A stretch of DNA of 64,000 nt from the NCBI RefSeq assembly GCF_050920415.1, contig NZ_CP169309.1. The stretch is one strand, 5' to 3'. Numbering within the stretch: position 1 is the first letter of the stretch; every line of letters begins with the position of its first letter. Positions 1,680-64,000 of this stretch are shown here, piece by piece. The translations under genes were made by a program, and so were the position numbers. The notes under the pieces are model-generated. The model was not told the origin of the DNA, did not search any database, and worked only from the letters and a program-made list of their open reading frames with translations. The DNA comes from Escherichia coli. Its GTDB lineage: Bacteria; Pseudomonadota; Gammaproteobacteria; Enterobacterales; Enterobacteriaceae.

Positions 1680-3221
1680 ATGCGTAAGATAACAACCGCC
1701 GAGACACTGGCGGCGCAAATTCAGGACGGCGCAACCATTGCCATTAGCGGTAATGGCGGCGGCATGGTGGAAGCGGACCATATTCTGGCTGCTATTGAAG
1801 CGCGTTTCCTGCAAACCGGACACCCGCGCGATCTGACATTAATCCACTCGCTGGGCATTGGCGATCGCGACTGCAAAGGCACTAACCGCTTCGCTCATGC
1901 AGATATGCTCAAACGCATCATTGCCGGACATTTTACCTGGTCGCCCAAGATGCAGGATCTGGTGAAAAACAATGCTATTGAAGCCTACTGCTTCCCTGGT
2001 GGCGTAATTCAGGCACTGCTGCGGGAGATCGGTGCCGGACGTCCAGGGCTTTTTACCCACGTTGGACTGGGATCGTTTGTTGATCCGCGCAACGGCGGCG
2101 GTAAGTCGAACGCCAGCACCACTGAGGATCTGGTAGAACTGATTGAAATCGACGGTGAAACCAAACTTCGTTATCGCCCTTTCAAAGTGGATTACGCGAT
2201 TTTGCGTGGCACTTATGCTGATCCGCGTGGCAACGTCAGCCTCGAAGAAGAGGCGATTGATATGGATAGCTATTCCATGGCGCTGGCAGCACACAACAGC
2301 GGCGGCAAAGTGTTCGTACAGGTGCGCGATGTGCTGGAAGCTGGTGCCATTGAACCACGCCGGGTCAAATTACCGGGCATTCTGGTTGATGGCATCGTTG
2401 AACACCGCGAACAACCACAAACCTATCTTGGCGGTTACGATCTGACCATTAGCGGTCAGCATCGCCGTCTAAGTTCTAACGACGCAATTGAACTGGTTAG
2501 TCATCCGGTGCGCCGCCTGATTGCCCGTCGGGCAGCACGCGAACTGGTAGCTGGCGCTTCAACCAACTTTGGCTTTGGCATTCCCGGCGGCATTCCTGGG
2601 GTTGCACTGCGCGAAGGCGTGCCTTATCAAAGTTTATGGCTGAGCGTCGAGCAAGGCGTGCATAACGGTATGATGCTGGATGATGCTCTGTTCGGCTGCG
2701 CCCGTAACGCCGATGCCATTATTCCATCACTCGATCAATTCGAATTCTACAGTGGCGGAGGGATCGATATCACCTTCCTCGGCATGGGAGAGATGGATCA
2801 GCATGGTAACGTCAACGTCTCCCATCTCAATGGCAATCTCATTGGCCCCGGCGGATTTCTCGAAATTGCGCAAAACGCCCGTAAAGTGGTGTTCTGTGGC
2901 ACGTTCGACGCCAAAGGTAGCAAGATTGATGTAACACCAGATGGCTTGCATATCGCCCAGTCAGGTCAAATCCCTAAACTGGTTACCCAGGTGGAAAAAA
3001 TCACTTTTAGCGCCGCCTACGCACAGCAAAGCGGTCAGGAAGTGTTGTATATCACTGAACGTGCAGTATTCCAGTTAACGGCAGAAGGCGTTGAATTAAT
3101 TGAAATCGCGCCGGGTGTGGAGATTGAACGCGACATTCTGCCGCATATGGCTTTCCGTCCAATTATCAATCAGCCACGCCTGATGGAAAGTAGCCTGTTT
3201 ACGCCGATGGAGGATGCATGA
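1680..3221 (+). CDS. CoA-transferase (family I, acetyl-CoA hydrolase/transferase-like), 513 aa
   Basis: ORF with TAAGGA 6 nt upstream. Size and Gly-rich N-terminal region (ISGNGGGM) resemble YdiF-type acyl-CoA:acetate CoA-transferases. Family call from memory, not searched. Confidence 0.6.
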   Translation: MRKITTAETLAAQIQDGATIAISGNGGGMVEADHILAAIEARFLQTGHPRDLTLIHSLGIGDRDCKGTNRFAHADMLKRIIAGHFTWSPKMQDLVKNNAIEAYCFPGGVIQALLREIGAGRPGLFTHVGLGSFVDPRNGGGKSNASTTEDLVELIEIDGETKLRYRPFKVDYAILRGTYADPRGNVSLEEEAIDMDSYSMALAAHNSGGKVFVQVRDVLEAGAIEPRRVKLPGILVDGIVEHREQPQTYLGGYDLTISGQHRRLSSNDAIELVSHPVRRLIARRAARELVAGASTNFGFGIPGGIPGVALREGVPYQSLWLSVEQGVHNGMMLDDALFGCARNADAIIPSLDQFEFYSGGGIDITFLGMGEMDQHGNVNVSHLNGNLIGPGGFLEIAQNARKVVFCGTFDAKGSKIDVTPDGLHIAQSGQIPKLVTQVEKITFSAAYAQQSGQEVLYITERAVFQLTAEGVELIEIAPGVEIERDILPHMAFRPIINQPRLMESSLFTPMEDA

Positions 3222-5299
3222 GTCAGCTTGATGACACCCTCCTTGATGCGCTGACGCACGTCACTTTCCCGAAGGGTTTTGTGTCAGCAGAGCCAGCGTC
3301 AATTGTCACGGTTGAAGATGTCGATTACCCGATCTGGCAAGTTGATGCGCTAGTCGTTGGTAGCGGCGCGGCAGGGCTGCGCGCAGCGGTTGAACTTAAG
3401 CGCCGCCAGCAAAATGTGCTGATCGCCACCGCCGGGTTATATATGGGGACATCGGCATGTTCTGGTTCCGATAAACAGACGCTGTTTACCGCCGCTACCG
3501 CGGGCAACGGCGATAACTTCGCTAAACTGGCGGAAGCACTGGCGAGCGGTGGGGCGATGGATCACGACACCGCTTATGTCGAAGCGGTAGGTTCTCTGCA
3601 CACTCTTGGCGGGTTGCAATATCTTGGTCTGGAATTACCGGAAGATCGCTATGGCGCAATTCTTCGTTATCAAACCGACCATGACGAAGCCGGGCGAGCA
3701 ACCTCGTGTGGGCCGCGTACTTCTCGCCTAATGGTGAAAGTATTGCTGGAGGAAGTGCAGCGTCTTGCCATACCACTACTGACCAGTGCAACGGTGATTA
3801 AGCTCCTGCATCAGCACGGAGAGAATGGCGAAGATCGCGTTGCGGGGGCTATTCTCGCAACCGGTTCCCGCGCCTATAACCCTTGGGGGCTGGCTATTGT
3901 GACGGCGCCCAATGTGGTACTGGCAACGGGCGGACCGGGCGAGCTTTATCGCGACAGTGTTTATCCACATAAATGCTTCGGCTCGCTGGGGCTGGCGCTG
4001 GAAGAAGGTCTGACGCTAACCAATCTGACCGAAAGCCAGTTTGGTATAGGCACGCCGCGCAGCACGTTTCCGTGGAATTTGTCCGGCACCTATGTACAGG
4101 TGATCCCATATATCTATTCCGTGGATGCCGGGGGCAACGAGTATAACTTCCTCGCAGATTACTATCGCACCACCCAGGAGCTGGCTTCAAACATCTTCCG
4201 TAAAGGCTATCAGTGGCCGTTTCACGCCACACGAGTGATGGATTTTGGCTCCAGCTTGTTAGATATGGCAGTAGCGCAAGAGCAGCAATCAGGGCGTCAG
4301 GTATTTATGGATTTCAATCGCAATCCTGAACCTGTGCCGGGTGACCTGCCGTTCTCATTAGATCGACTGGACGACGACGTTCGCGCGTATCTGGAAAATA
4401 ACGACGCTCTGGCACCATCGCCCATCGAACGACTGCAACGAATGAATCCGCTGTCTATCTCGCTGTATAAGATGCACGGTTACGATCTCACCACGCAGCC
4501 ATTGCAGTTTGCCATGAATAATCAGCATATGAATGGCGGCATTGAAGTGGATATCTGGGGGCAAACCTCCCTGTCCGGCTGTTTCGCCGTGGGGGAAGTT
4601 GCTGGCACACACGGCGTCACTCGCCCTGGTGGTGCGGCATTGAATGCCGGGCAGGTTTTTGCTGTTCGTCTGGCACGTTTTATTGGTTGCACGCAAAAGC
4701 GGTCCGTTGAGGATGATGTCGCGCAGCTAGTAGCCTCACCTCTGCATACAATCAGAGAAGTTATCGCTCAGGCACTGGCAAACGAGAACGGAATGACGCT
4801 GGCAACGGTAAAAGAAAAAATCCAGGCGCGAATGTCTGATTACGCGGGATTTATTTGCCATGCTGATAAAGTTCGTCACGCCGCCCGTGACGCCATGCTG
4901 TTAAATGAATTTGCGCAGCAACATGGTCTAACTATCAACCACGCCGGTGAAATTGCCGAGCTATTTATGTGGCGGCATATGGCATTAACATCCGCTGCGG
5001 TGTTAAGCCAGCTATCACATTATATTGATGCTGGCGGTGGTAGTCGTGGAGCGCGGATGATTATTGATCCACAAGGAGAATATCTTCCACAAACTCGTCG
5101 CGGCGCAATCGAAGATTGGCGTTTTCGCTCTGAACAAGCTGAAGATAAAAATCACAGACTAACTCTCTCCTTTTCACAAGGTTTATTTATTAATGAAATT
5201 AAGTTCTTGAGAAACTTACCGCATATTAAAGGTATTTACTTTGAGAAGAATTGGCCTGATTTTCTTAACGGAACAATTTATCAGACACGGCATGAATAA
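3218..5299 (+). CDS. FAD-dependent oxidoreductase, fumarate-reductase/succinate-dehydrogenase flavoprotein-like fold, 693 aa
   Basis: Start overlaps the upstream stop (ATGA) with GGAGGA RBS. Dinucleotide-binding motif VVGSGAAGLRAAVEL near the N-terminus and an ATGGPGELY segment typical of FAD-binding-2 enzymes. No signal peptide; the last ~250 aa are not recognisable. Confidence 0.62.
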   Translation: MSQLDDTLLDALTHVTFPKGFVSAEPASIVTVEDVDYPIWQVDALVVGSGAAGLRAAVELKRRQQNVLIATAGLYMGTSACSGSDKQTLFTAATAGNGDNFAKLAEALASGGAMDHDTAYVEAVGSLHTLGGLQYLGLELPEDRYGAILRYQTDHDEAGRATSCGPRTSRLMVKVLLEEVQRLAIPLLTSATVIKLLHQHGENGEDRVAGAILATGSRAYNPWGLAIVTAPNVVLATGGPGELYRDSVYPHKCFGSLGLALEEGLTLTNLTESQFGIGTPRSTFPWNLSGTYVQVIPYIYSVDAGGNEYNFLADYYRTTQELASNIFRKGYQWPFHATRVMDFGSSLLDMAVAQEQQSGRQVFMDFNRNPEPVPGDLPFSLDRLDDDVRAYLENNDALAPSPIERLQRMNPLSISLYKMHGYDLTTQPLQFAMNNQHMNGGIEVDIWGQTSLSGCFAVGEVAGTHGVTRPGGAALNAGQVFAVRLARFIGCTQKRSVEDDVAQLVASPLHTIREVIAQALANENGMTLATVKEKIQARMSDYAGFICHADKVRHAARDAMLLNEFAQQHGLTINHAGEIAELFMWRHMALTSAAVLSQLSHYIDAGGGSRGARMIIDPQGEYLPQTRRGAIEDWRFRSEQAEDKNHRLTLSFSQGLFINEIKFLRNLPHIKGIYFEKNWPDFLNGTIYQTRHE

Positions 5300-26587: not shown

Positions 26588-26611
26588 TAATGTACTCGTT
26601 GTTTACGTTTT

Positions 26612-26640
26612 GCCTGATGCGCTACGCTTATCAGGCCTAC
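26612..26640. repeat. REP element (first copy of a BIME-like pair)
   Basis: GCCTGATGCGCTACGCTTATCAGGCCTAC, in the rnr-rlmB intergenic region. Confidence 0.7.
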
Positions 26641-26675
26641 ATGATCCCTGCAATGTATTGAATTTGCGTGATTAT

Positions 26676-26710
26676 GTAGGCCGGATAAGGCGTTCACGCC
26701 GCATCCGGCA
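26676..26710. repeat. REP element (second, inverted copy)
   Basis: GTAGGCCGGATAAGGCGTTCACGCCGCATCCGGCA, inverted relative to the first copy. Confidence 0.7.
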
Positions 26711-26767
26711 TGAACAAAGCGCATTTTGTCAGCAATCTGACCCTCTTCTGTTTGAAGGGGGTAATGA

Positions 26768-29209
26768 TCACTCTGCCACTTTTTTCTTCGCCGCACGCTT
26801 CGCTTTAGTTGCAGCGGCTATTTTCTGCGTTTTCGCCGATGGCTTTTTCGCTTTTCTCGCGTCTTTCTTCGCCGCTTTCGGCTTCGGTTTTTTCTCGCCA
26901 CGGAAGGCGCTGTCTGGCTCAAAGTTTACCTTTTTACCGACCTGGCGACGCTTGCCACCTTTTTTACCTGCATCGCCTTTTTTCGCTTTCTCGCGCGCGG
27001 TTTTACCGACGTTGCGCGGTGCGCGTTCGCTGGAGATCAGGCTAAAGTCGATTTTGCGCTCGTCCATATTAACCGCTTCGACGCGCACTTCCACGCGATC
27101 GCCCAGGCGATAAGTCTGGCCGCTGGATTCACCCATCAGGCGTTGTCCTACCTGGTCAAAGCGATAGTAGTCATTGTCCAGAGAAGAGACATGGACCAGA
27201 CCATCGATGAACAAGTCATCCAGGCGAACAAAGAAGCCAAAACCAGTGACGCTGGAAATCACGCCTTTAAAGACGTTACCTACCTGGTCGAGCATGAAGT
27301 CACACTTCAGCCAGTCAGCCACATCGCGCGTTGCTTCGTCGGCACGACGTTCCGCCATCGAACAGTGCTGACCCAGTTGCAGCATTTCTTCCATCGAATA
27401 ATGGTAGCCGCCGGTTTCAGTGGTGTTGCCCTGATGCCCCTGCTCTTTCGCCAGCAGATACTTAATGGCGCGGTGTAGCGTCAGATCAGGATAACGACGA
27501 ATCGGCGAAGTAAAGTGCGCATAGGACTGCAATGCCAGACCGAAGTGACCGCGGTTTTCCGGATCGTAAATCGCTTGTTTCATCGAGCGCAACAGCATGG
27601 TTTGCAGCATTTCTGCGTCAGGACGGTCAGCAACCGATTCCAGCAGTTCCGCGTAGTCACGCGGTTCCGGCTTGTTACCGCCAGGCAATTCCAGCCCCAG
27701 TTCCGCCAGCACTGAACGGAAAGAGGTTATCGCTTCAGTGCTCGGCTTGTCGTGAATACGGAACAGTGCCGGTTCTTTGGCCTTCTCAACGAAACGCGCC
27801 GCCGAGATATTCGCCAGAATCATGCACTCTTCAATTAACTTGTGTGCGTCGTTACGCTGGGTCTGTTCGATACGCTCAATACGGCGTTCAGCGTTGAAAA
27901 TGAACTTCGCTTCTTCGCTCTCAAACGAGATCCCGCCGCGTTCTTCACGGGCTTTATCCAGCACTTTATAGAGGTTATGCAGCTCTTCGAGGTGCTTAAC
28001 CAGCGGGGAGTACTGCTCGCGCAGATCCTGATCGCCCTGCAGAATATGCCAGACTTTGGTGTAGGTCAGACGCGCGTGAGAGCTCATCACCGCTTCATAG
28101 AATTTGTAGCCCGTCAGGCGACCTTTCGACGAAATGGTCATCTCACACACCATACACAGGCGGTCTACCTGCGGGTTGAGCGAGCACAGGCCGTTAGAGA
28201 GCACTTCCGGCAGCATCGGGATAACCTGCGAAGGGAAGTACACCGACGTGCCACGGTTACGCGCTTCCCTGTCCAGCGGCGTTGGCGGACGCACATAGTA
28301 GCTGACGTCGGCAATCGCGACCCATAAACGCCAGCCGCCGCCGCGTTTTTTCTCGCAGTAAACTGCATCGTCAAAGTCACGGGCGTCTTCGCCATCAATG
28401 GTGACCAGCGGTAAATCGCGCAGATCGACACGGCCAGCTTTCGCCTCTTCCGGCACTTCTTCTTTCAGCCCGGCAACCTGTTGCTCAACAGCCTGCGGCC
28501 AGATGTACGGAATTTCATGGGTACGCAGGGCGATATCAACCGCCATGCCGGTGCCCATATTATCGCCCAGCACTTCGACGATTTTACCCACTGCTTTGGT
28601 ACGGCGAGTCGGGCGTTGGGTCAGTTCAACCACCACCACAAAGCCCATCCGCGCGCCCATGATCTGATCGGGCGGGATTAAGATATCGAAGCTCAAACGA
28701 CTGTCGTCAGGAACCACAAAGCCGACACCCGCTTCGGTAAAGTAGCGACCAACAATCTGGCTGGTTTTTGGCACCAGTACGCGGACAATACGCGCTTCAC
28801 GGCGGCCTTTACGGTCAGCGCCCAGCGGCTGCGCCAGCACCTGATCGCCATGAATGCATGTTTTCATCTGCTCGCTGGAGAGATACAAATCATCTTTACG
28901 TCCTTCAACCCGCAGAAAGCCGTAGCCATCACGGTGGCCAATAACGGTACCTTTCACCAGGTCGAGGCGTTCCGGCAGCGCATAGCACTGACGGCGAGTA
29001 AAGACCAGTTGACCATCGCGCTCCATCGCGCGCAGGCGGCGACGCAGGCCTTCAAGCTGCTCTTCGCCTTCAATGTGCAGTTCTACCGCCAGCTCATCAC
29101 GGCTGGCCGGTTTTTCACGTTTGGTTAAATGTTCGAGGATAAATTCCCGACTAGGGATGGGATTCGCGTATTTTTCAGCTTCGCGTTCCTGGAAAGGATC
29201 TTGTGACAT
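26768..29209 (-). CDS. rnr: ribonuclease R
   Basis: 813-aa product starting [23 protein letters not shown]... at the ATG at 29209 (GGAGG RBS), with a Lys-rich basic C-terminal tail. The ORF-track start at 29251 would overlap nsrR and is rejected. Confidence 0.95.
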
Positions 29210-56123: not shown

Positions 56124-57679
<1,556 letters not shown>

Positions 57680-59836: not shown

Positions 59837-60865
59837 ATGGCGCATATTGTAACCCTAAATACCCCATCCAGAGAAGATTGGTTAACGCAACTTGCCGATG
59901 TTGTGACCGATCCTGATGAACTTCTGCGTCTTTTGAATATAGACGCGGACGAAAAACTGTTGGCCGGACGCAGCGCCAAAAAGCTGTTTGCCCTGCGTGT
60001 TCCCCGCTCATTTATCGATCGCATGGAGAAAGGCAATCCGGACGATCCACTTTTGCGTCAGGTACTTACCTCGCAAGATGAGTTTGTCGTCGCGCCCGGA
60101 TTCTCCACCGACCCGCTGGAAGAACAGCACAGCGTAGTGCCTGGTTTGTTGCATAAATACCACAACCGGGCGCTATTGCTGGTCAAAGGCGGCTGTGCGG
60201 TAAATTGCCGTTATTGCTTTCGTCGCCATTTCCCGTATGCCGAAAATCAGGGCAACAAGCGAAACTGGCAGACGGCACTTGAGTATGTTGCAGCGCATCC
60301 GGAACTGGACGAGATGATTTTCTCCGGCGGCGATCCGCTGATGGCGAAAGATCACGAGCTGGACTGGTTGCTCACACAACTGGAAGCCATCCCGCATATC
60401 AAACGTCTGCGGATTCACAGCCGTCTGCCGATTGTGATCCCGGCACGCATCACAGATGCGCTGGTCGAACGCTTTTCACATTCTACGCTGCAAATCTTGC
60501 TGGTGAATCACATCAACCATGCCAATGAGGTAGATGAAACATTCCGCCAGGCGATGGCTAAGTTGCGCCGGGTAGGCGTTACTTTGCTGAACCAGAGCGT
60601 TCTGTTACGTGGTGTGAACGATAACGCACAAACGCTGGCAAACCTGAGTAATGCGTTGTTCGATGCGGGCGTGATGCCGTATTACCTGCATGTGCTCGAT
60701 AAAGTACAGGGCGCGGCGCATTTTATGGTGAGTGATGACGAAGCACGGCAGATTATGCGTGAGCTGCTGACGCTGGTATCTGGATATATGGTGCCGAAAC
60801 TGGCGCGCGAGATTGGCGGCGAACCCAGCAAAACGCCGCTGGATCTCCAGCTACCCCAGCAGTAA
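59837..60865 (+). CDS. epmB: EF-P beta-lysylation enzyme EpmB (lysine 2,3-aminomutase-like radical SAM protein)
   Basis: 342-aa translation with radical-SAM CxxxCxxC motif (CAVNCRYCFRRH); divergent from efp. Confidence 0.95.
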   Translation: MAHIVTLNTPSREDWLTQLADVVTDPDELLRLLNIDADEKLLAGRSAKKLFALRVPRSFIDRMEKGNPDDPLLRQVLTSQDEFVVAPGFSTDPLEEQHSVVPGLLHKYHNRALLLVKGGCAVNCRYCFRRHFPYAENQGNKRNWQTALEYVAAHPELDEMIFSGGDPLMAKDHELDWLLTQLEAIPHIKRLRIHSRLPIVIPARITDALVERFSHSTLQILLVNHINHANEVDETFRQAMAKLRRVGVTLLNQSVLLRGVNDNAQTLANLSNALFDAGVMPYYLHVLDKVQGAAHFMVSDDEARQIMRELLTLVSGYMVPKLAREIGGEPSKTPLDLQLPQQ

Positions 60866-61099
60866 CTGATTAAACAGGGAAGTTTAATCTTTGCACGTTG
60901 CATAACCTTTAATTATTCATATACATTGCTGTTATTACTTTTTATATAACCAACACCAATAATTAACCTTTCTTTTCTGTTTATATAGAGTGAGCACGGC
61001 TATTTATGTTATTTTAACAACTATTACTACCAAGCCCATTTATCTGGCTTATAAATTAAAATTAATTATTTAATTGAGAAATGGTTAGGGAGAACCTAC

Positions 61100-61969
61100 A
61101 TGGCCATAAGCATCAAGGGTGTTAATACCGGTGTTATTCGCAAGAGTAATAATTTCATTGCACTGGCGCTGAAAATTAAAGAGCCTCGCAATAAAGAATC
61201 GTTGTTCTTTCTGTCTGTCATGGAACTGCGCGACCTGCTGATTGCGCTGGAAAGCCGTCTGCATCAAAAGCATAAACTGGATGCTGCAGCACGCCTTCAG
61301 TATGAGCAAGCTCGCGATAAAGTCATTAAGAAAATGGCAGAAAATATCCCAGAAATTCTGGTTGATGAGCTTAAAAATGCCGATATTAATCGTCGAGTTA
61401 ACACGCTGGAACTTACCGATAATCAGGGTGAAAATCTTACCTTCGTATTAACGCTACATGACGGTAGCAAATGTGAGTTAGTCATCAATGAGTTGCAGAT
61501 TGAAATGCTGGCGCGAGCAATCATTCATGCAATTAATAATGCGGAAATGCGTGAACTGGCATTACGTATTACCTCACTGTTAGATTTCCTGCCGTTATAC
61601 GACGTTGACTGCCAGGACAATGGCAATCTGGAATATGACACCTATTCCCAACCAGAATGGAAACATAACTTGTTCAACCATTATCTGGCAGTGCTTTATC
61701 GCTTTAAAGATGAAAATGGCAAAGAGCAATTTAGCGGCGCGGTGGTGAAAACGCGTGAAGCAACGCCGGGTAAAGAAGTGGAGGCGATCACTCGCCGAAT
61801 GCTTGATTTCAGCCCTAGACTGAAAAAACTCGCGGGTGTGCCATGTCAGGTCTATGTTCGCACCGTAGCGGCAAATAACACCCAACCGCTAACCCAGGAT
61901 CAATGCTTACGCGCGCTGCATCACTTACGTGTTCAGTCCATCAGCAAAAGTGCACCACAAGCGAAATAA
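61100..61969 (+). CDS. yjeJ: uncharacterized protein YjeJ
   Basis: 289-aa ORF MAISIKGVNTGVIRKSNNFIALALKIKEPRNKESLFF...; AT-rich gene preceded by a very AT-rich 234-bp intergenic region. Confidence 0.88.
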   Translation: MAISIKGVNTGVIRKSNNFIALALKIKEPRNKESLFFLSVMELRDLLIALESRLHQKHKLDAAARLQYEQARDKVIKKMAENIPEILVDELKNADINRRVNTLELTDNQGENLTFVLTLHDGSKCELVINELQIEMLARAIIHAINNAEMRELALRITSLLDFLPLYDVDCQDNGNLEYDTYSQPEWKHNLFNHYLAVLYRFKDENGKEQFSGAVVKTREATPGKEVEAITRRMLDFSPRLKKLAGVPCQVYVRTVAANNTQPLTQDQCLRALHHLRVQSISKSAPQAK

Positions 61970-62018
61970 TCTCATCTTTGCTAATGCGAGGCTGGAGTCA
62001 TCCAGCCTCTGAATCACA

Positions 62019-62372
62019 TCAATTCGGGCACTTATATACCTGGCCGATAATCTGGCTATCCGTCGGGACAAAACTGGACAACATTCCCTGCGACGGGCTG
62101 CTGATACCATAAATCACGTTACCACCCATTGCCGCTGCCTGGTTGCGCAGATCGTTTGCCGCACCACGCATAGAACCGCCTTCTTCACCGTGTTGCCCGG
62201 AAAGCCAGTTACTTTGCTTACCTGTCGCAGTACCAATCAACTGGCACTCTGCGCCTGGCTGCTCGTCCACAATGCGTACACTCTGACCGGCAGCACTCAA
62301 TTCGTTGCTGGAGCTACAACCCGCCATCAGTAGCGCGGCACCGACAATCCCTGCTAAGTATTTTACGTGCAT
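62019..62372 (-). CDS. yjeI: lipoprotein YjeI (DUF4156)
   Basis: 117-aa product starting MHVKYLAGIVGAALLMAGCSSSN... (lipobox LMAGC) at the ATG at 62372. Confidence 0.9.
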   Translation of the reverse strand: MHVKYLAGIVGAALLMAGCSSSNELSAAGQSVRIVDEQPGAECQLIGTATGKQSNWLSGQHGEEGGSMRGAANDLRNQAAAMGGNVIYGISSPSQGMLSSFVPTDSQIIGQVYKCPN

Positions 62373-62446
62373 GTTATTCCCCATAATCAATGAGCTGGAC
62401 GCCACTCGCGTCGTCCGTGTCTGAATCTTATACTAGAAAGATGACC

Positions 62447-62480
62447 AAAAGAAAAACCCCCAGACATTTCTGCCCGGGGG
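62447..62480 (-). terminator. rho-independent terminator of the groES-groEL operon
   Basis: GC-rich hairpin (CCCCCAG ... CTG-CCC-GGGGG, 62457-62480) followed on the minus strand by a U-rich tract (plus-strand AAAAGAAAAA, 62447-62456), directly after the groL stop codon. Confidence 0.75.
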
Positions 62481-62509
62481 TTTGTTTATTTCTGCGAGGT
62501 GCAGGGCAA

Positions 62510-64000
<1,491 letters not shown>

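What the first reader, a model, noticed from the sequence alone, without database searches (positions are those of the whole stretch)
61988..62009. 9-bp hairpin between convergent yjeJ and yjeI
GAGGCTGGA and TCCAGCCTC form a perfect 9-bp stem with a 4-nt loop in the 49-bp gap between the convergent genes. There is no clear U-tract on either side. It is a candidate bidirectional terminator or RNA stability element.
Basis: seen in the sequence. Interest (0 to 1): 0.2.

Follow-up and report, generated by a model that had tools for sequence, protein, structure and literature searches.

The report
Protective RNA hairpin after yjeI/yjeJ
The hairpin is real and conserved across Escherichia, and most likely it is an ordinary stem-loop that protects the end of the yjeI (and perhaps yjeJ) mRNA from degradation rather than a true terminator; in most E. 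coli a mobile repeat (BIME) sits right next to it, and this strain has lost that repeat.

Summary
GAGGCTGGA-gtca-TCCAGCCTC lies at 61988-62009, in the 49-bp gap between convergent yjeJ(+) and yjeI(-). Its folding energy is -18/-17 kcal/mol, and neither strand has a U-tract.

- **Conservation:** it is single-copy, present in 5422 of 5426 complete E. coli genomes and in four other Escherichia species-level genomes. The inner 8 pairs never vary, while the loop and the 5' flank do.
- **Published K-12 data:** two published 3'-end maps place the yjeI mRNA 3' end 4-5 nt past this hairpin. One of them also reports a Rho-dependent termination region about 480 nt further on.
- **Best reading:** the hairpin blocks 3'-to-5' exonucleases on Rho-terminated transcripts, a known class (Dar & Sorek 2018). 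It is not a bidirectional intrinsic terminator. A role on the yjeJ strand is untested.
about 65% of E. coli and all other Escherichia checked carry a ~150-bp BIME-1 (two inverted REPs) just after the hairpin, flanked by a second copy of its right arm. The window's 49-bp spacer (18 genomes) is a derived precise deletion between those repeats. A deletion of the same kind gave the roughly 1,850 genomes with a B2-like short allele.

This is an ordinary feature of low interest.

The parts
61988..62009 (.). Perfect 9-bp / 4-nt-loop hairpin. Left arm 61988-61996, loop 61997-62000, right arm 62001-62009. It folds on both strands.
   Evidence: Single copy per genome and present in 5422/5426 complete E. 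coli genomes. The inner 8 pairs are invariant in 11 distinct alleles from five Escherichia lineages.
61984..61985 (-). Predicted steady-state 3' end of yjeI-sense RNA, 4-5 nt past the stem. Transferred by homology from K-12.
   Evidence: MG1655 Term-seq 3' ends at 4373350(+) and 4373349(+) in PMC7815308 Supplementary file 1. TRS terminus at 4373350/51, 'Distant primary yjeI', in PMC10687069. Coordinates were mapped through L001. This is inferred for the window strain.
62019..62372 (-). yjeI (DUF4156 lipoprotein) CDS. Its stop codon UGA (62021-62019) lies 9 nt upstream of the hairpin on the - strand.
   Evidence: RefSeq annotation of the identical strain 2013C-4282.
61100..61969 (+). yjeJ CDS. 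Its stop codon UAA (61967-61969) lies 18 nt upstream of the hairpin on the + strand.
62001..62009 (.). Deletion junction. In K-12-like, O157-like and all non-coli Escherichia alleles, a 143-153-bp BIME-1 block follows this arm: REP y, a ~36-nt linker, inverted REP z1, and flanking motifs. In most of these alleles a second copy of (C)CATCCAGCCTC follows the block. In the window the two copies are collapsed into one.
   Evidence: Allele counts.
61688..61787 (-). C-rich, G-poor stretch (C/G = 2.1) 200-300 nt downstream of the hairpin on the yjeI-sense strand, antisense to yjeJ. It is a candidate Rho loading (rut) region.
   Evidence: The K-12 Rho termination region at 4373829(+) lies about 480 nt past the hairpin. 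This is inferred and not tested in this strain.
62454..62483 (-). Canonical groSL intrinsic terminator (13-pair stem plus T-tract), upstream of yjeI. This is context: it shows what a true terminator looks like at this locus and implies that yjeI is mostly transcribed on its own.
   Evidence: TRS 'Primary groL' terminus at 4372733.

Best explanation
The hairpin is a 3'-end-protecting stem-loop for transcripts that are terminated by Rho further downstream.

On the - strand, yjeI mRNA is translated to its UGA codon, and the hairpin follows 9 nt later. RNA polymerase reads through the hairpin into untranslated RNA antisense to yjeJ. Rho loads there, with a candidate C-rich tract 200-300 nt downstream, and terminates a few hundred nt on. 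PNPase and RNase II then trim the tail back until the -17 kcal/mol stem stops them, which leaves a stable 3' end 4-5 nt past the stem.

Because the DNA is a perfect palindrome, the same structure forms 18 nt after the yjeJ stop on the + strand. It would protect yjeJ mRNA in the same way, and the RNA antisense to yjeI downstream is C-rich (C/G 1.3-1.7).

Shown: the structure, its conservation, the K-12 3' end on the yjeI strand, and the K-12 Rho region downstream. Inferred: trimming by exonucleases, transfer of these results to this BIME-less strain, and any role on the yjeJ strand.

At the DNA level, the window carries a derived allele. An ancestral BIME-1 sat next to the hairpin, flanked by direct repeats of its right arm, and was precisely deleted.
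For: - **Structure:** a stable perfect stem with no U-tract.
- **3' end in K-12:** it maps 4-5 nt past the stem in two growth conditions in Term-seq and again in the TRS analysis. I checked that the 3' end is nucleotide 51 of the listed 61-mer, using the ecnB and frdD terminators in the same table.
- **Rho:** a Rho termination region lies at 4373829(+), with Rho score 5.9 and p = 1.8e-20. Reads were 193/48 upstream/downstream without bicyclomycin and 112/165 with it.
- **Fit to a known class:** Dar & Sorek 2018 (PMC6061677) found that the 3' ends of Rho-dependent E. coli transcripts sit immediately downstream of stable stem-loops lacking U-tracts. These are produced by PNPase/RNase II trimming, and only 24% of them are REPs.
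- **K-12 3' UTR fold:** folding the 191-nt stretch from the yjeI stop codon to the mapped 3' end puts this stem-loop at the very 3' end, distal to the REP hairpins. It is therefore the first barrier met by a 3'-to-5' exonuclease.
- **Conservation:** 0 of 16 inner stem positions vary, against 11 of 22 positions in the loop and 5' flank (Fisher p = 0.0007). This holds across 11 alleles. There is one compensatory G-C to A-U change at the outer pair. The hairpin is present in 5422/5426 genomes.
- **Composition:** C/G = 2.1 at 200-300 nt downstream on the - strand.
Against: - All transcript data come from K-12, which has the BIME-1 and an 8-bp stem with a C·C mismatch at the outer pair. Nothing was measured in a strain with the short allele.
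- No 3' end is reported on the yjeJ strand.
- Covariation is not significant (90 of 500 shuffles reach it). The invariance could reflect sequence selection, or palindrome self-correction, rather than RNA structure.
- The first 200 nt downstream on the - strand are G-rich (C/G 0.6-0.7), which is not ideal for Rho loading.
- The Rho region coordinate is only the best-scoring point within 800-nt windows.
- Exonuclease dependence of this particular end was not tested.
Confidence: 0.7

Rival explanations
1. The hairpin is a weak, non-canonical intrinsic terminator. It acts in both directions without a U-tract, possibly helped by NusA/NusG pausing or by head-on collisions between converging polymerases.
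For: The hairpin has the energy and geometry of terminator stems. It sits between convergent genes, where bidirectional terminators are common. The K-12 3' end is close to the stem. Dar & Sorek note that low-U hairpins may be inefficient intrinsic terminators backed up by Rho.
Against: Each 8-nt tail has only 2 U, and there is no A-tract upstream. The consensus scan does not call it. The mapped end is 4-5 nt past the stem, whereas the ecnB and frdD terminators in the same table end 7-8 nt past the stem, inside a U-tract. Strong Rho-dependent read-through downstream shows that polymerase passes the hairpin.
Confidence: 0.15
2. The hairpin has no RNA function. It is a by-product or landing site of BIME-1 insertion and excision: a palindrome created or kept by DNA-level processes such as hairpin-targeted insertion, slipped-strand repair or intrastrand templating.
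For: The right arm is duplicated on the far side of the BIME-1 in all long alleles. The spacer is a hotspot for repeats: BIME, IS621, and ERIC in Citrobacter. Other BIME-1 copies also abut hairpins. Covariation is not significant.
Against: The hairpin exists in both long and short alleles, so it is not an excision scar. It stays invariant while the distal repeat copy decays to TCCAATCTC, TCCAGCTTC or TCCAATATC and while the loop and flank diverge. A stable RNA 3' end maps to it. Other BIME-1 loci show no flanking direct repeats.
Confidence: 0.1
3. The 22-bp perfect palindrome is a DNA binding site for a dimeric protein, or a cruciform-forming site, rather than an RNA element.
For: It has perfect dyad symmetry, and the stem sequence is invariant rather than covarying.
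Against: It lies between two gene 3' ends with no promoter to regulate. The centre (loop) varies in sequence and in length, 4 to 6 nt, which would change half-site spacing. It is single-copy with no related sites. The RNA 3' end explains it without a protein.
Confidence: 0.03

Closest known systems
[quoted passage not shown] 2012)
   Same: A stable stem-loop energetically like a terminator, with no U-rich tail. The steady-state 3' end is immediately downstream, and Rho-dependent termination lies further downstream. The element is not a REP.
   Different: This instance is a perfect palindrome shared by two convergent genes, so one DNA element could serve both mRNAs. Exonuclease dependence has not been measured for it. 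The evidence comes from the K-12 allele, which also carries a BIME-1 upstream in the same 3' UTR.
Canonical and bidirectional intrinsic terminators (hairpin plus U-tract, with an A-tract on the other side; Ju et al. 2019)
   Same: A GC-rich hairpin between convergent genes that folds on both strands.
   Different: It has no U-tract or A-tract. The 3' end is closer to the stem, and there is Rho-dependent read-through beyond it.
REP/BIME elements acting as mRNA 3' stabilisers (Newbury et al. 1987; own knowledge). BIME-1 is defined as y, long linker L, z1 (Ton-Hoang et al. 2012, PMC3333891)
   Same: An extragenic palindrome at a gene's 3' end that blocks exonucleases. In most strains it is physically adjacent to a genuine BIME-1.
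   Different: The hairpin has no sequence similarity to REP and no GTAG/CTAC foot. It is single-copy per genome. In the window the BIME-1 itself is absent.
Whole BIME-1 excision polymorphisms among E. coli isolates (Bachellier et al. 1997, Genetics 145:551; recalled from the abstract, paper not held)
   Same: A presence/absence polymorphism of a complete BIME-1 in an intergenic region, with IS elements targeting the REP in some strains.
   Different: Here the excision endpoints are defined: 9-12-bp direct repeats made from a hairpin arm. I could not check whether this locus was among those studied.

Membership tests
Canonical intrinsic (Rho-independent) terminator | GC-rich stem-loop of about 5-14 bp with a short loop | tested here: met
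   9-bp perfect stem, 6 G-C pairs, 4-nt loop, -18.1/-17.2 kcal/mol.
Canonical intrinsic (Rho-independent) terminator | 7-8-nt U-rich tract immediately 3' of the stem (and an A-tract 5' of it if bidirectional) | tested here: not met
   The tails are UGAAUCAC and GCAUUAGC, each with 2 U in 8 nt. The scan requires at least 5 T in 8 and does not call the site.
Canonical intrinsic (Rho-independent) terminator | Transcription stops at the site independently of Rho | tested here: not met
   Published K-12 DirectRNA-seq with and without bicyclomycin shows a Rho termination region about 480 nt downstream on the same strand (Rho score 5.9, p = 1.8e-20). Polymerase therefore passes the hairpin. No in vitro test was possible.
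Protective 3' stem-loop of Rho-terminated transcripts (Dar & Sorek 2018) | Stable stem-loop not followed by a U-rich sequence | tested here: met
   The class definition was read.
Protective 3' stem-loop of Rho-terminated transcripts (Dar & Sorek 2018) | Precise steady-state RNA 3' end immediately downstream of the stem | tested here: met
   For the yjeI-sense strand in K-12: 4373349/50(+), 4-5 nt past the stem, in Term-seq and in TRS. Not measured in the window's strain or on the yjeJ strand.
Protective 3' stem-loop of Rho-terminated transcripts (Dar & Sorek 2018) | Rho-dependent termination and a C>G (rut-like) sequence downstream | tested here: inconclusive
   A Rho region is present downstream in K-12. 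C/G = 2.1 only at 200-300 nt downstream, and the first 200 nt are G-rich.
Protective 3' stem-loop of Rho-terminated transcripts (Dar & Sorek 2018) | Longer 3' tails accumulate in pnp / rnb mutants | not testable with these tools
   The supplementary tables of PMC6061677 are not held.
REP / BIME repeat family | Sequence match to a REP consensus with a GTAG/CTAC foot, in many dispersed copies per genome | tested here: not met
   The hairpin occurs at a median of 1 place per genome, highest 2, and once in the window even with 3 mismatches allowed. By contrast, the adjacent K-12 insertion matches a median of 30 places per genome and has the y and z1 REPs.
Any curated RNA family (Rfam 15) | Covariance-model hit at or near the gathering score | tested here: not met
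   No hit overlaps 61988-62009, even at E up to 10.

The most novel reading that the evidence does not exclude
The hairpin's foot is a specific insertion and excision site for BIME-1. In this reading, the ancestral BIME-1 integrated at the 3' foot of a pre-existing mRNA-end hairpin and duplicated 8-12 bp of its right arm, a target-site-duplication-like footprint not expected from RAYT/IS200-type transposition. That duplication now drives recurrent precise loss of the element, at least twice in E. coli. If BIME-1 copies generally land beside terminator-type hairpins (4 of the 5 copies I looked at abut one), this would point to a hairpin-guided mobilisation mechanism for BIMEs.
Probability: 0.1. 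Interest if true: 0.4.

Novelty: new member of a known kind. Interest (0 to 1): 0.13.

Why it matters
The practical value is small. The finding assigns a concrete role to a conserved intergenic palindrome and corrects the label 'bidirectional terminator' to 'exonuclease-blocking 3' stem-loop of Rho-terminated mRNAs'.

It also shows that the yjeI 3' UTR differs about tenfold in length between E. coli lineages: roughly 35 nt expected in short-allele strains against 190 nt in K-12. Both end at the same hairpin. That makes a natural pair for testing whether a BIME-1 in a 3' UTR affects mRNA stability or translation.

In the short allele the hairpin lies only 9 nt from the yjeI stop codon. This is within the distance at which REP hairpins were reported to interfere with translation termination (Liang, Rudd & Deutscher 2015, Mol Cell; own knowledge, not checked here).

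The defined direct repeats give a clean example of recurrent precise BIME loss.

Tried and rejected
- **Rfam:** a scan of 60800-62700 at E up to 10 found nothing at the hairpin, only weak chance hits around the groSL terminator.
- **Consensus terminator scan:** it does not call the site.
- **Dispersed repeat family:** rejected, because the hairpin is single-copy.
- **Covariation test:** uninformative. Eight of 9 pairs never vary, and the one compensatory change is not significant.
- **Excision scar:** rejected, because the hairpin is present intact beside the BIME in long alleles.
- **General BIME-1 target-site duplication:** not supported. Three other BIME-1 loci and the window's own BIME-1 at 26610-26730 show no flanking direct repeats.
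- **Literature that gave nothing:**
  - the TERMITe supplements have no yjeI/yjeJ entry;
  - the supplements of Dar & Sorek 2018 and Choe 2022 are not held;
  - Ju et al. 2019 and Bachellier et al. 1997 are not held;
  - Liang et al. 2015 was not found;
  - papers mentioning yjeJ were not relevant to its 3' end.
- **EPEC (short-allele) termini:** I looked for yjeI in the stored TRS tables. It appears only twice, both in rows with K-12 coordinates, and the large tables were cut when stored.

Full report
**Locus and observation**

The window is E. coli. Over 61900-62100 it is 100% identical to strain 2013C-4282. The local gene order is epmB(+), yjeJ(+) at 61100-61969, yjeI(-) at 62019-62372, and groL(-).

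The reported hairpin is exactly as described. GAGGCTGGA / GTCA / TCCAGCCTC lies at 61988-62009 inside the 49-bp convergent spacer. It folds at -18.1 kcal/mol on the + strand and -17.2 kcal/mol on the - strand, with z-scores near -4.5.

Neither strand has a U-tract: each tail has 2 U in 8 nt. The consensus scan does not call the site as a terminator, although it does find the groSL terminator 450 bp away. No Rfam family matches.

Perfect hairpins of at least 9 bp are several-fold enriched in this window over shuffles, with 11 entries at 6 loci against a mean of 1.7. Chance would put about 0.001 of them in a 49-bp gap.

A 201-nt query matches most E. coli genomes in two pieces about 150 bp apart. 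K-12-like genomes carry 153 extra bases immediately after the right arm:

- a flanking motif (CTGATAACGTGATCGTTGGTCAT);
- REP y (GCCGGATGCGGCGTAAACGCCTTATCCGGCCTAC);
- a ~36-nt linker;
- inverted REP z1 (GTAGGCCTGATAAGCGAAGCGCATCAGGC);
- a second flanking motif.

This is the BIME-1 architecture as defined in PMC3333891. The unit is a genuine dispersed repeat, with a median of 30 matching places per genome. Another copy lies in the window at 26610-26730.

In the long alleles the BIME-1 is followed by a second copy of the hairpin's right arm. This forms a 9-12-bp direct repeat, (C)CATCCAGCCTC.

A 46-nt probe gives the allele counts:

| Allele | Genomes |
|---|---|
| Window's exact short allele | 18 |
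| Hairpin contiguous with yjeI in a divergent, B2-like short allele | about 1,854 |
| Long-allele left junction | about 3,534 |

Of the long-allele genomes, 2,995 have the intact K-12-type BIME. About 560 have the locus split by a further insertion. In the two such genomes I opened, the insertion is IS621.

**Direction of change**

Every non-coli Escherichia representative has the long form with both repeat copies: E. albertii, E. whittamii, Escherichia sp. E1V33, Escherichia sp. MOD1-EC7003 and the divergent 'E. coli' E69. In some of them the distal copy has decayed, to TCCAATCTC, TCCAGCTTC or TCCAATATC.

The long form is therefore ancestral in the genus. The short forms are precise deletions between the direct repeats.

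The window's short allele shares its 5' flank (TCTCATCTTTGCTAATGC) with K-12 and O157 long alleles. The B2-like short allele shares its flank (TCTCATCTGTTTTACTAC) with the E1V33 and E. whittamii long alleles. The most parsimonious reading is at least two independent deletions.

The deletion also restores a perfect ninth pair. K-12 has G·G on the + strand, which is C·C on the yjeI-sense RNA. O157-type alleles have lost the distal repeat through a separate 10-bp deletion.

Citrobacter species have no such hairpin. Instead they have REPs, one overlapping the yjeJ stop, and sometimes an ERIC element in the same spacer. An Enterobacter genome has an unrelated hairpin there.

**Is the hairpin itself under constraint?**

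It is single-copy and present in 5422 of 5426 complete genomes.

Among 11 distinct alleles from five Escherichia lineages, the 16 inner stem positions never vary. In contrast, 8 of 18 positions in the 5' flank and 3 of 4 loop positions do vary, and the loop length ranges from 4 to 6 nt. Fisher's test gives p = 0.0007, uncorrected for phylogeny.

The outer pair shows G-C, G·G, A·C and one compensatory A-U (MOD1-EC7003). This single event is not significant, since 90 of 500 shuffles reach it. The data support constraint on the stem but cannot by themselves separate RNA structure from sequence constraint.

**Transcript evidence (published, K-12)**

Supplementary file 1 of Adams et al. 2021 (PMC7815308) lists Term-seq 3' ends at MG1655 4373350(+) and 4373349(+), found on two of the file's growth-condition tabs. 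The scores are 1472 and 1228. The listed sequence is ...TTTCAGGCTGGATGGCTCCAGCCTCGCA[T]TAGCAAAGAT.

The table gives 61-mers. I checked against the ecnB and frdD terminators in the same table that the 3' end is nucleotide 51. Those ends then fall 7-8 nt past their stems, inside the U-tracts.

The yjeI-sense RNA therefore ends 4-5 nt past this hairpin, which corresponds to window 61985/61984 on the - strand (mapping through L001). The authors' pipeline labelled the end 'antisense yjeJ'.

The TRS study (PMC10687069) lists a terminus at 4373350/4373351(+) as 'Distant primary' for yjeI, with a 190-nt 3' UTR.

Supplementary file 2 of Adams et al. reports a Rho termination region at 4373829(+), about 480 nt further downstream and antisense to yjeJ. 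The Rho score is 5.9 and p = 1.8e-20. Read counts were 193 to 48 without bicyclomycin and 112 to 165 with it.

Folding the 191-nt stretch from the K-12 yjeI stop codon to the mapped 3' end places this stem-loop at the extreme 3' end, distal to the two REP hairpins. No 3' end is listed on the yjeJ-sense strand in either study.

**Mechanism**

These facts fit the class defined by Dar & Sorek 2018 (PMC6061677). In E. coli, Rho-dependent transcripts have precise steady-state 3' ends immediately downstream of stable stem-loops that lack U-tracts. Termination is diffuse and lies downstream, and PNPase and RNase II trim back to the stem. Only 24% of such stems are REPs.

For this locus I infer the following sequence:

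1. Polymerase reads through the hairpin into untranslated RNA antisense to yjeJ.
2. Rho loads there. A C/G = 2.1 tract lies 200-300 nt downstream, at window 61688-61787.
3. Rho terminates a few hundred nt further on.
4. Exonucleases trim back to the hairpin.

The palindrome would give the same protection to yjeJ mRNA on the other strand, where the RNA antisense to yjeI is C-rich (C/G 1.3-1.7). That role is untested.

In the window's strain the yjeI 3' UTR would be only about 35 nt, with the hairpin 9 nt from the stop codon. This differs from K-12, and it may matter for translation termination (Liang et al. 2015; own knowledge, unchecked).

**Rivals**

- **Weak U-less intrinsic terminator.** This cannot be excluded without in vitro transcription. 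It is disfavoured by the tail sequence, by the position of the 3' end and by the Rho-dependent read-through.
- **DNA-level by-product of BIME dynamics.** This is disfavoured because the hairpin persists unchanged in both alleles while the distal repeat decays, and because a stable RNA end maps to it.
- **Protein-binding palindrome.** This is unlikely, given the variable centre and the position between two gene 3' ends.

**Verdict**

The hairpin is a stability and 3'-end-defining element, not a bidirectional intrinsic terminator.

It is an ordinary new instance of a known class. Its K-12 3' end is already present in published tables, though it has not been discussed there. The added value is the evolutionary context: a BIME-1 was lost by deletion between repeats of the hairpin arm.

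Interest is low, at about 0.13. The most novel reading that remains open is that BIME-1 insertion is guided to hairpin feet and duplicates the target. I give that about 10%.

Noticed in passing
L030 (E. coli E2865) 2157-3380; L009 (UTAK-2) from 750: An IS621 (IS110-family) copy is inserted in the z1 REP of the yjeJ-yjeI BIME-1. The junctions are GTAG|ATACTG...ATACAAG|GCCTGAT, which is the element's canonical REP target (reverse complement of ATCAGGCCTAC) with the AG/CT core at both ends (target identity is from my own knowledge). Roughly 560 of 5,425 complete genomes have this locus split by an insertion. I opened only two of them.
   Followed up: partly
window 26610-26790 (- strand); L032; L033: Other BIME-1 copies also sit directly next to terminator-like hairpins. 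In the window the hairpin is CCCCCTTCaaacaGAAGAGGG. In L033 it is the tsx terminator AAATGCCGGATcttgtATCCGGCATTT, and in L032 it is the livF-side hairpin AAGGAGTCttttGACTCCTT. None of these loci shows flanking direct repeats.
   Followed up: partly
L015, L017, L021 (Citrobacter spp.), about 3400-3480: In several Citrobacter species the same yjeJ-yjeI spacer holds an ERIC/IRU-type element (core CCCCAGGAGCATAGATAACTATGTGACTGGGG) in addition to REPs, and the yjeJ stop codon lies inside a REP. The spacer is a recurrent landing site for palindromic repeats.
   Followed up: no
L029 (E. coli HH97) about 1830-2010: In this assembly the hairpin's right half and the whole BIME-1 are replaced by a ~190-nt run consisting almost entirely of C. 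This is almost certainly an assembly or polishing artefact at a structured repeat.
   Followed up: no
L010 (NZ_ABFU01000112.1, 'Bacillus coahuilensis'); L023 (DAAV01000145.1, 'Bacteroidales MAG'): Contigs filed under unrelated organisms carry K-12-type yjeJ-BIME-yjeI sequence at 96-97% protein identity. They are likely E. coli contamination in those assemblies.
   Followed up: no
window 56503-56523: The perfect 9-bp GC hairpin CGGCCCGCC-tat-GGCGGGCCG followed by a T-tract is the frd operon terminator. Its Term-seq 3' end (MG1655 4378960, - strand) is in the same published table, and I used it as a positive control for reading that table.
   Followed up: yes
L006, L007 (O157:H7 and O100:H21 alleles), about 560-575: These long alleles lack the distal copy of the hairpin arm, through a 10-bp deletion (CAGCCTCTGG) between TCAC microhomologies. 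They can no longer lose the BIME-1 by the same repeat-mediated deletion.
   Followed up: no
L008 (E. coli ML35) vs L014 (E. albertii): The ML35 spacer allele (6-nt loop, truncated REP y, distal repeat TCCAGCTTC) is identical to the E. albertii allele rather than to other E. coli alleles. This suggests introgression or a deep shared polymorphism at this locus.
   Followed up: no
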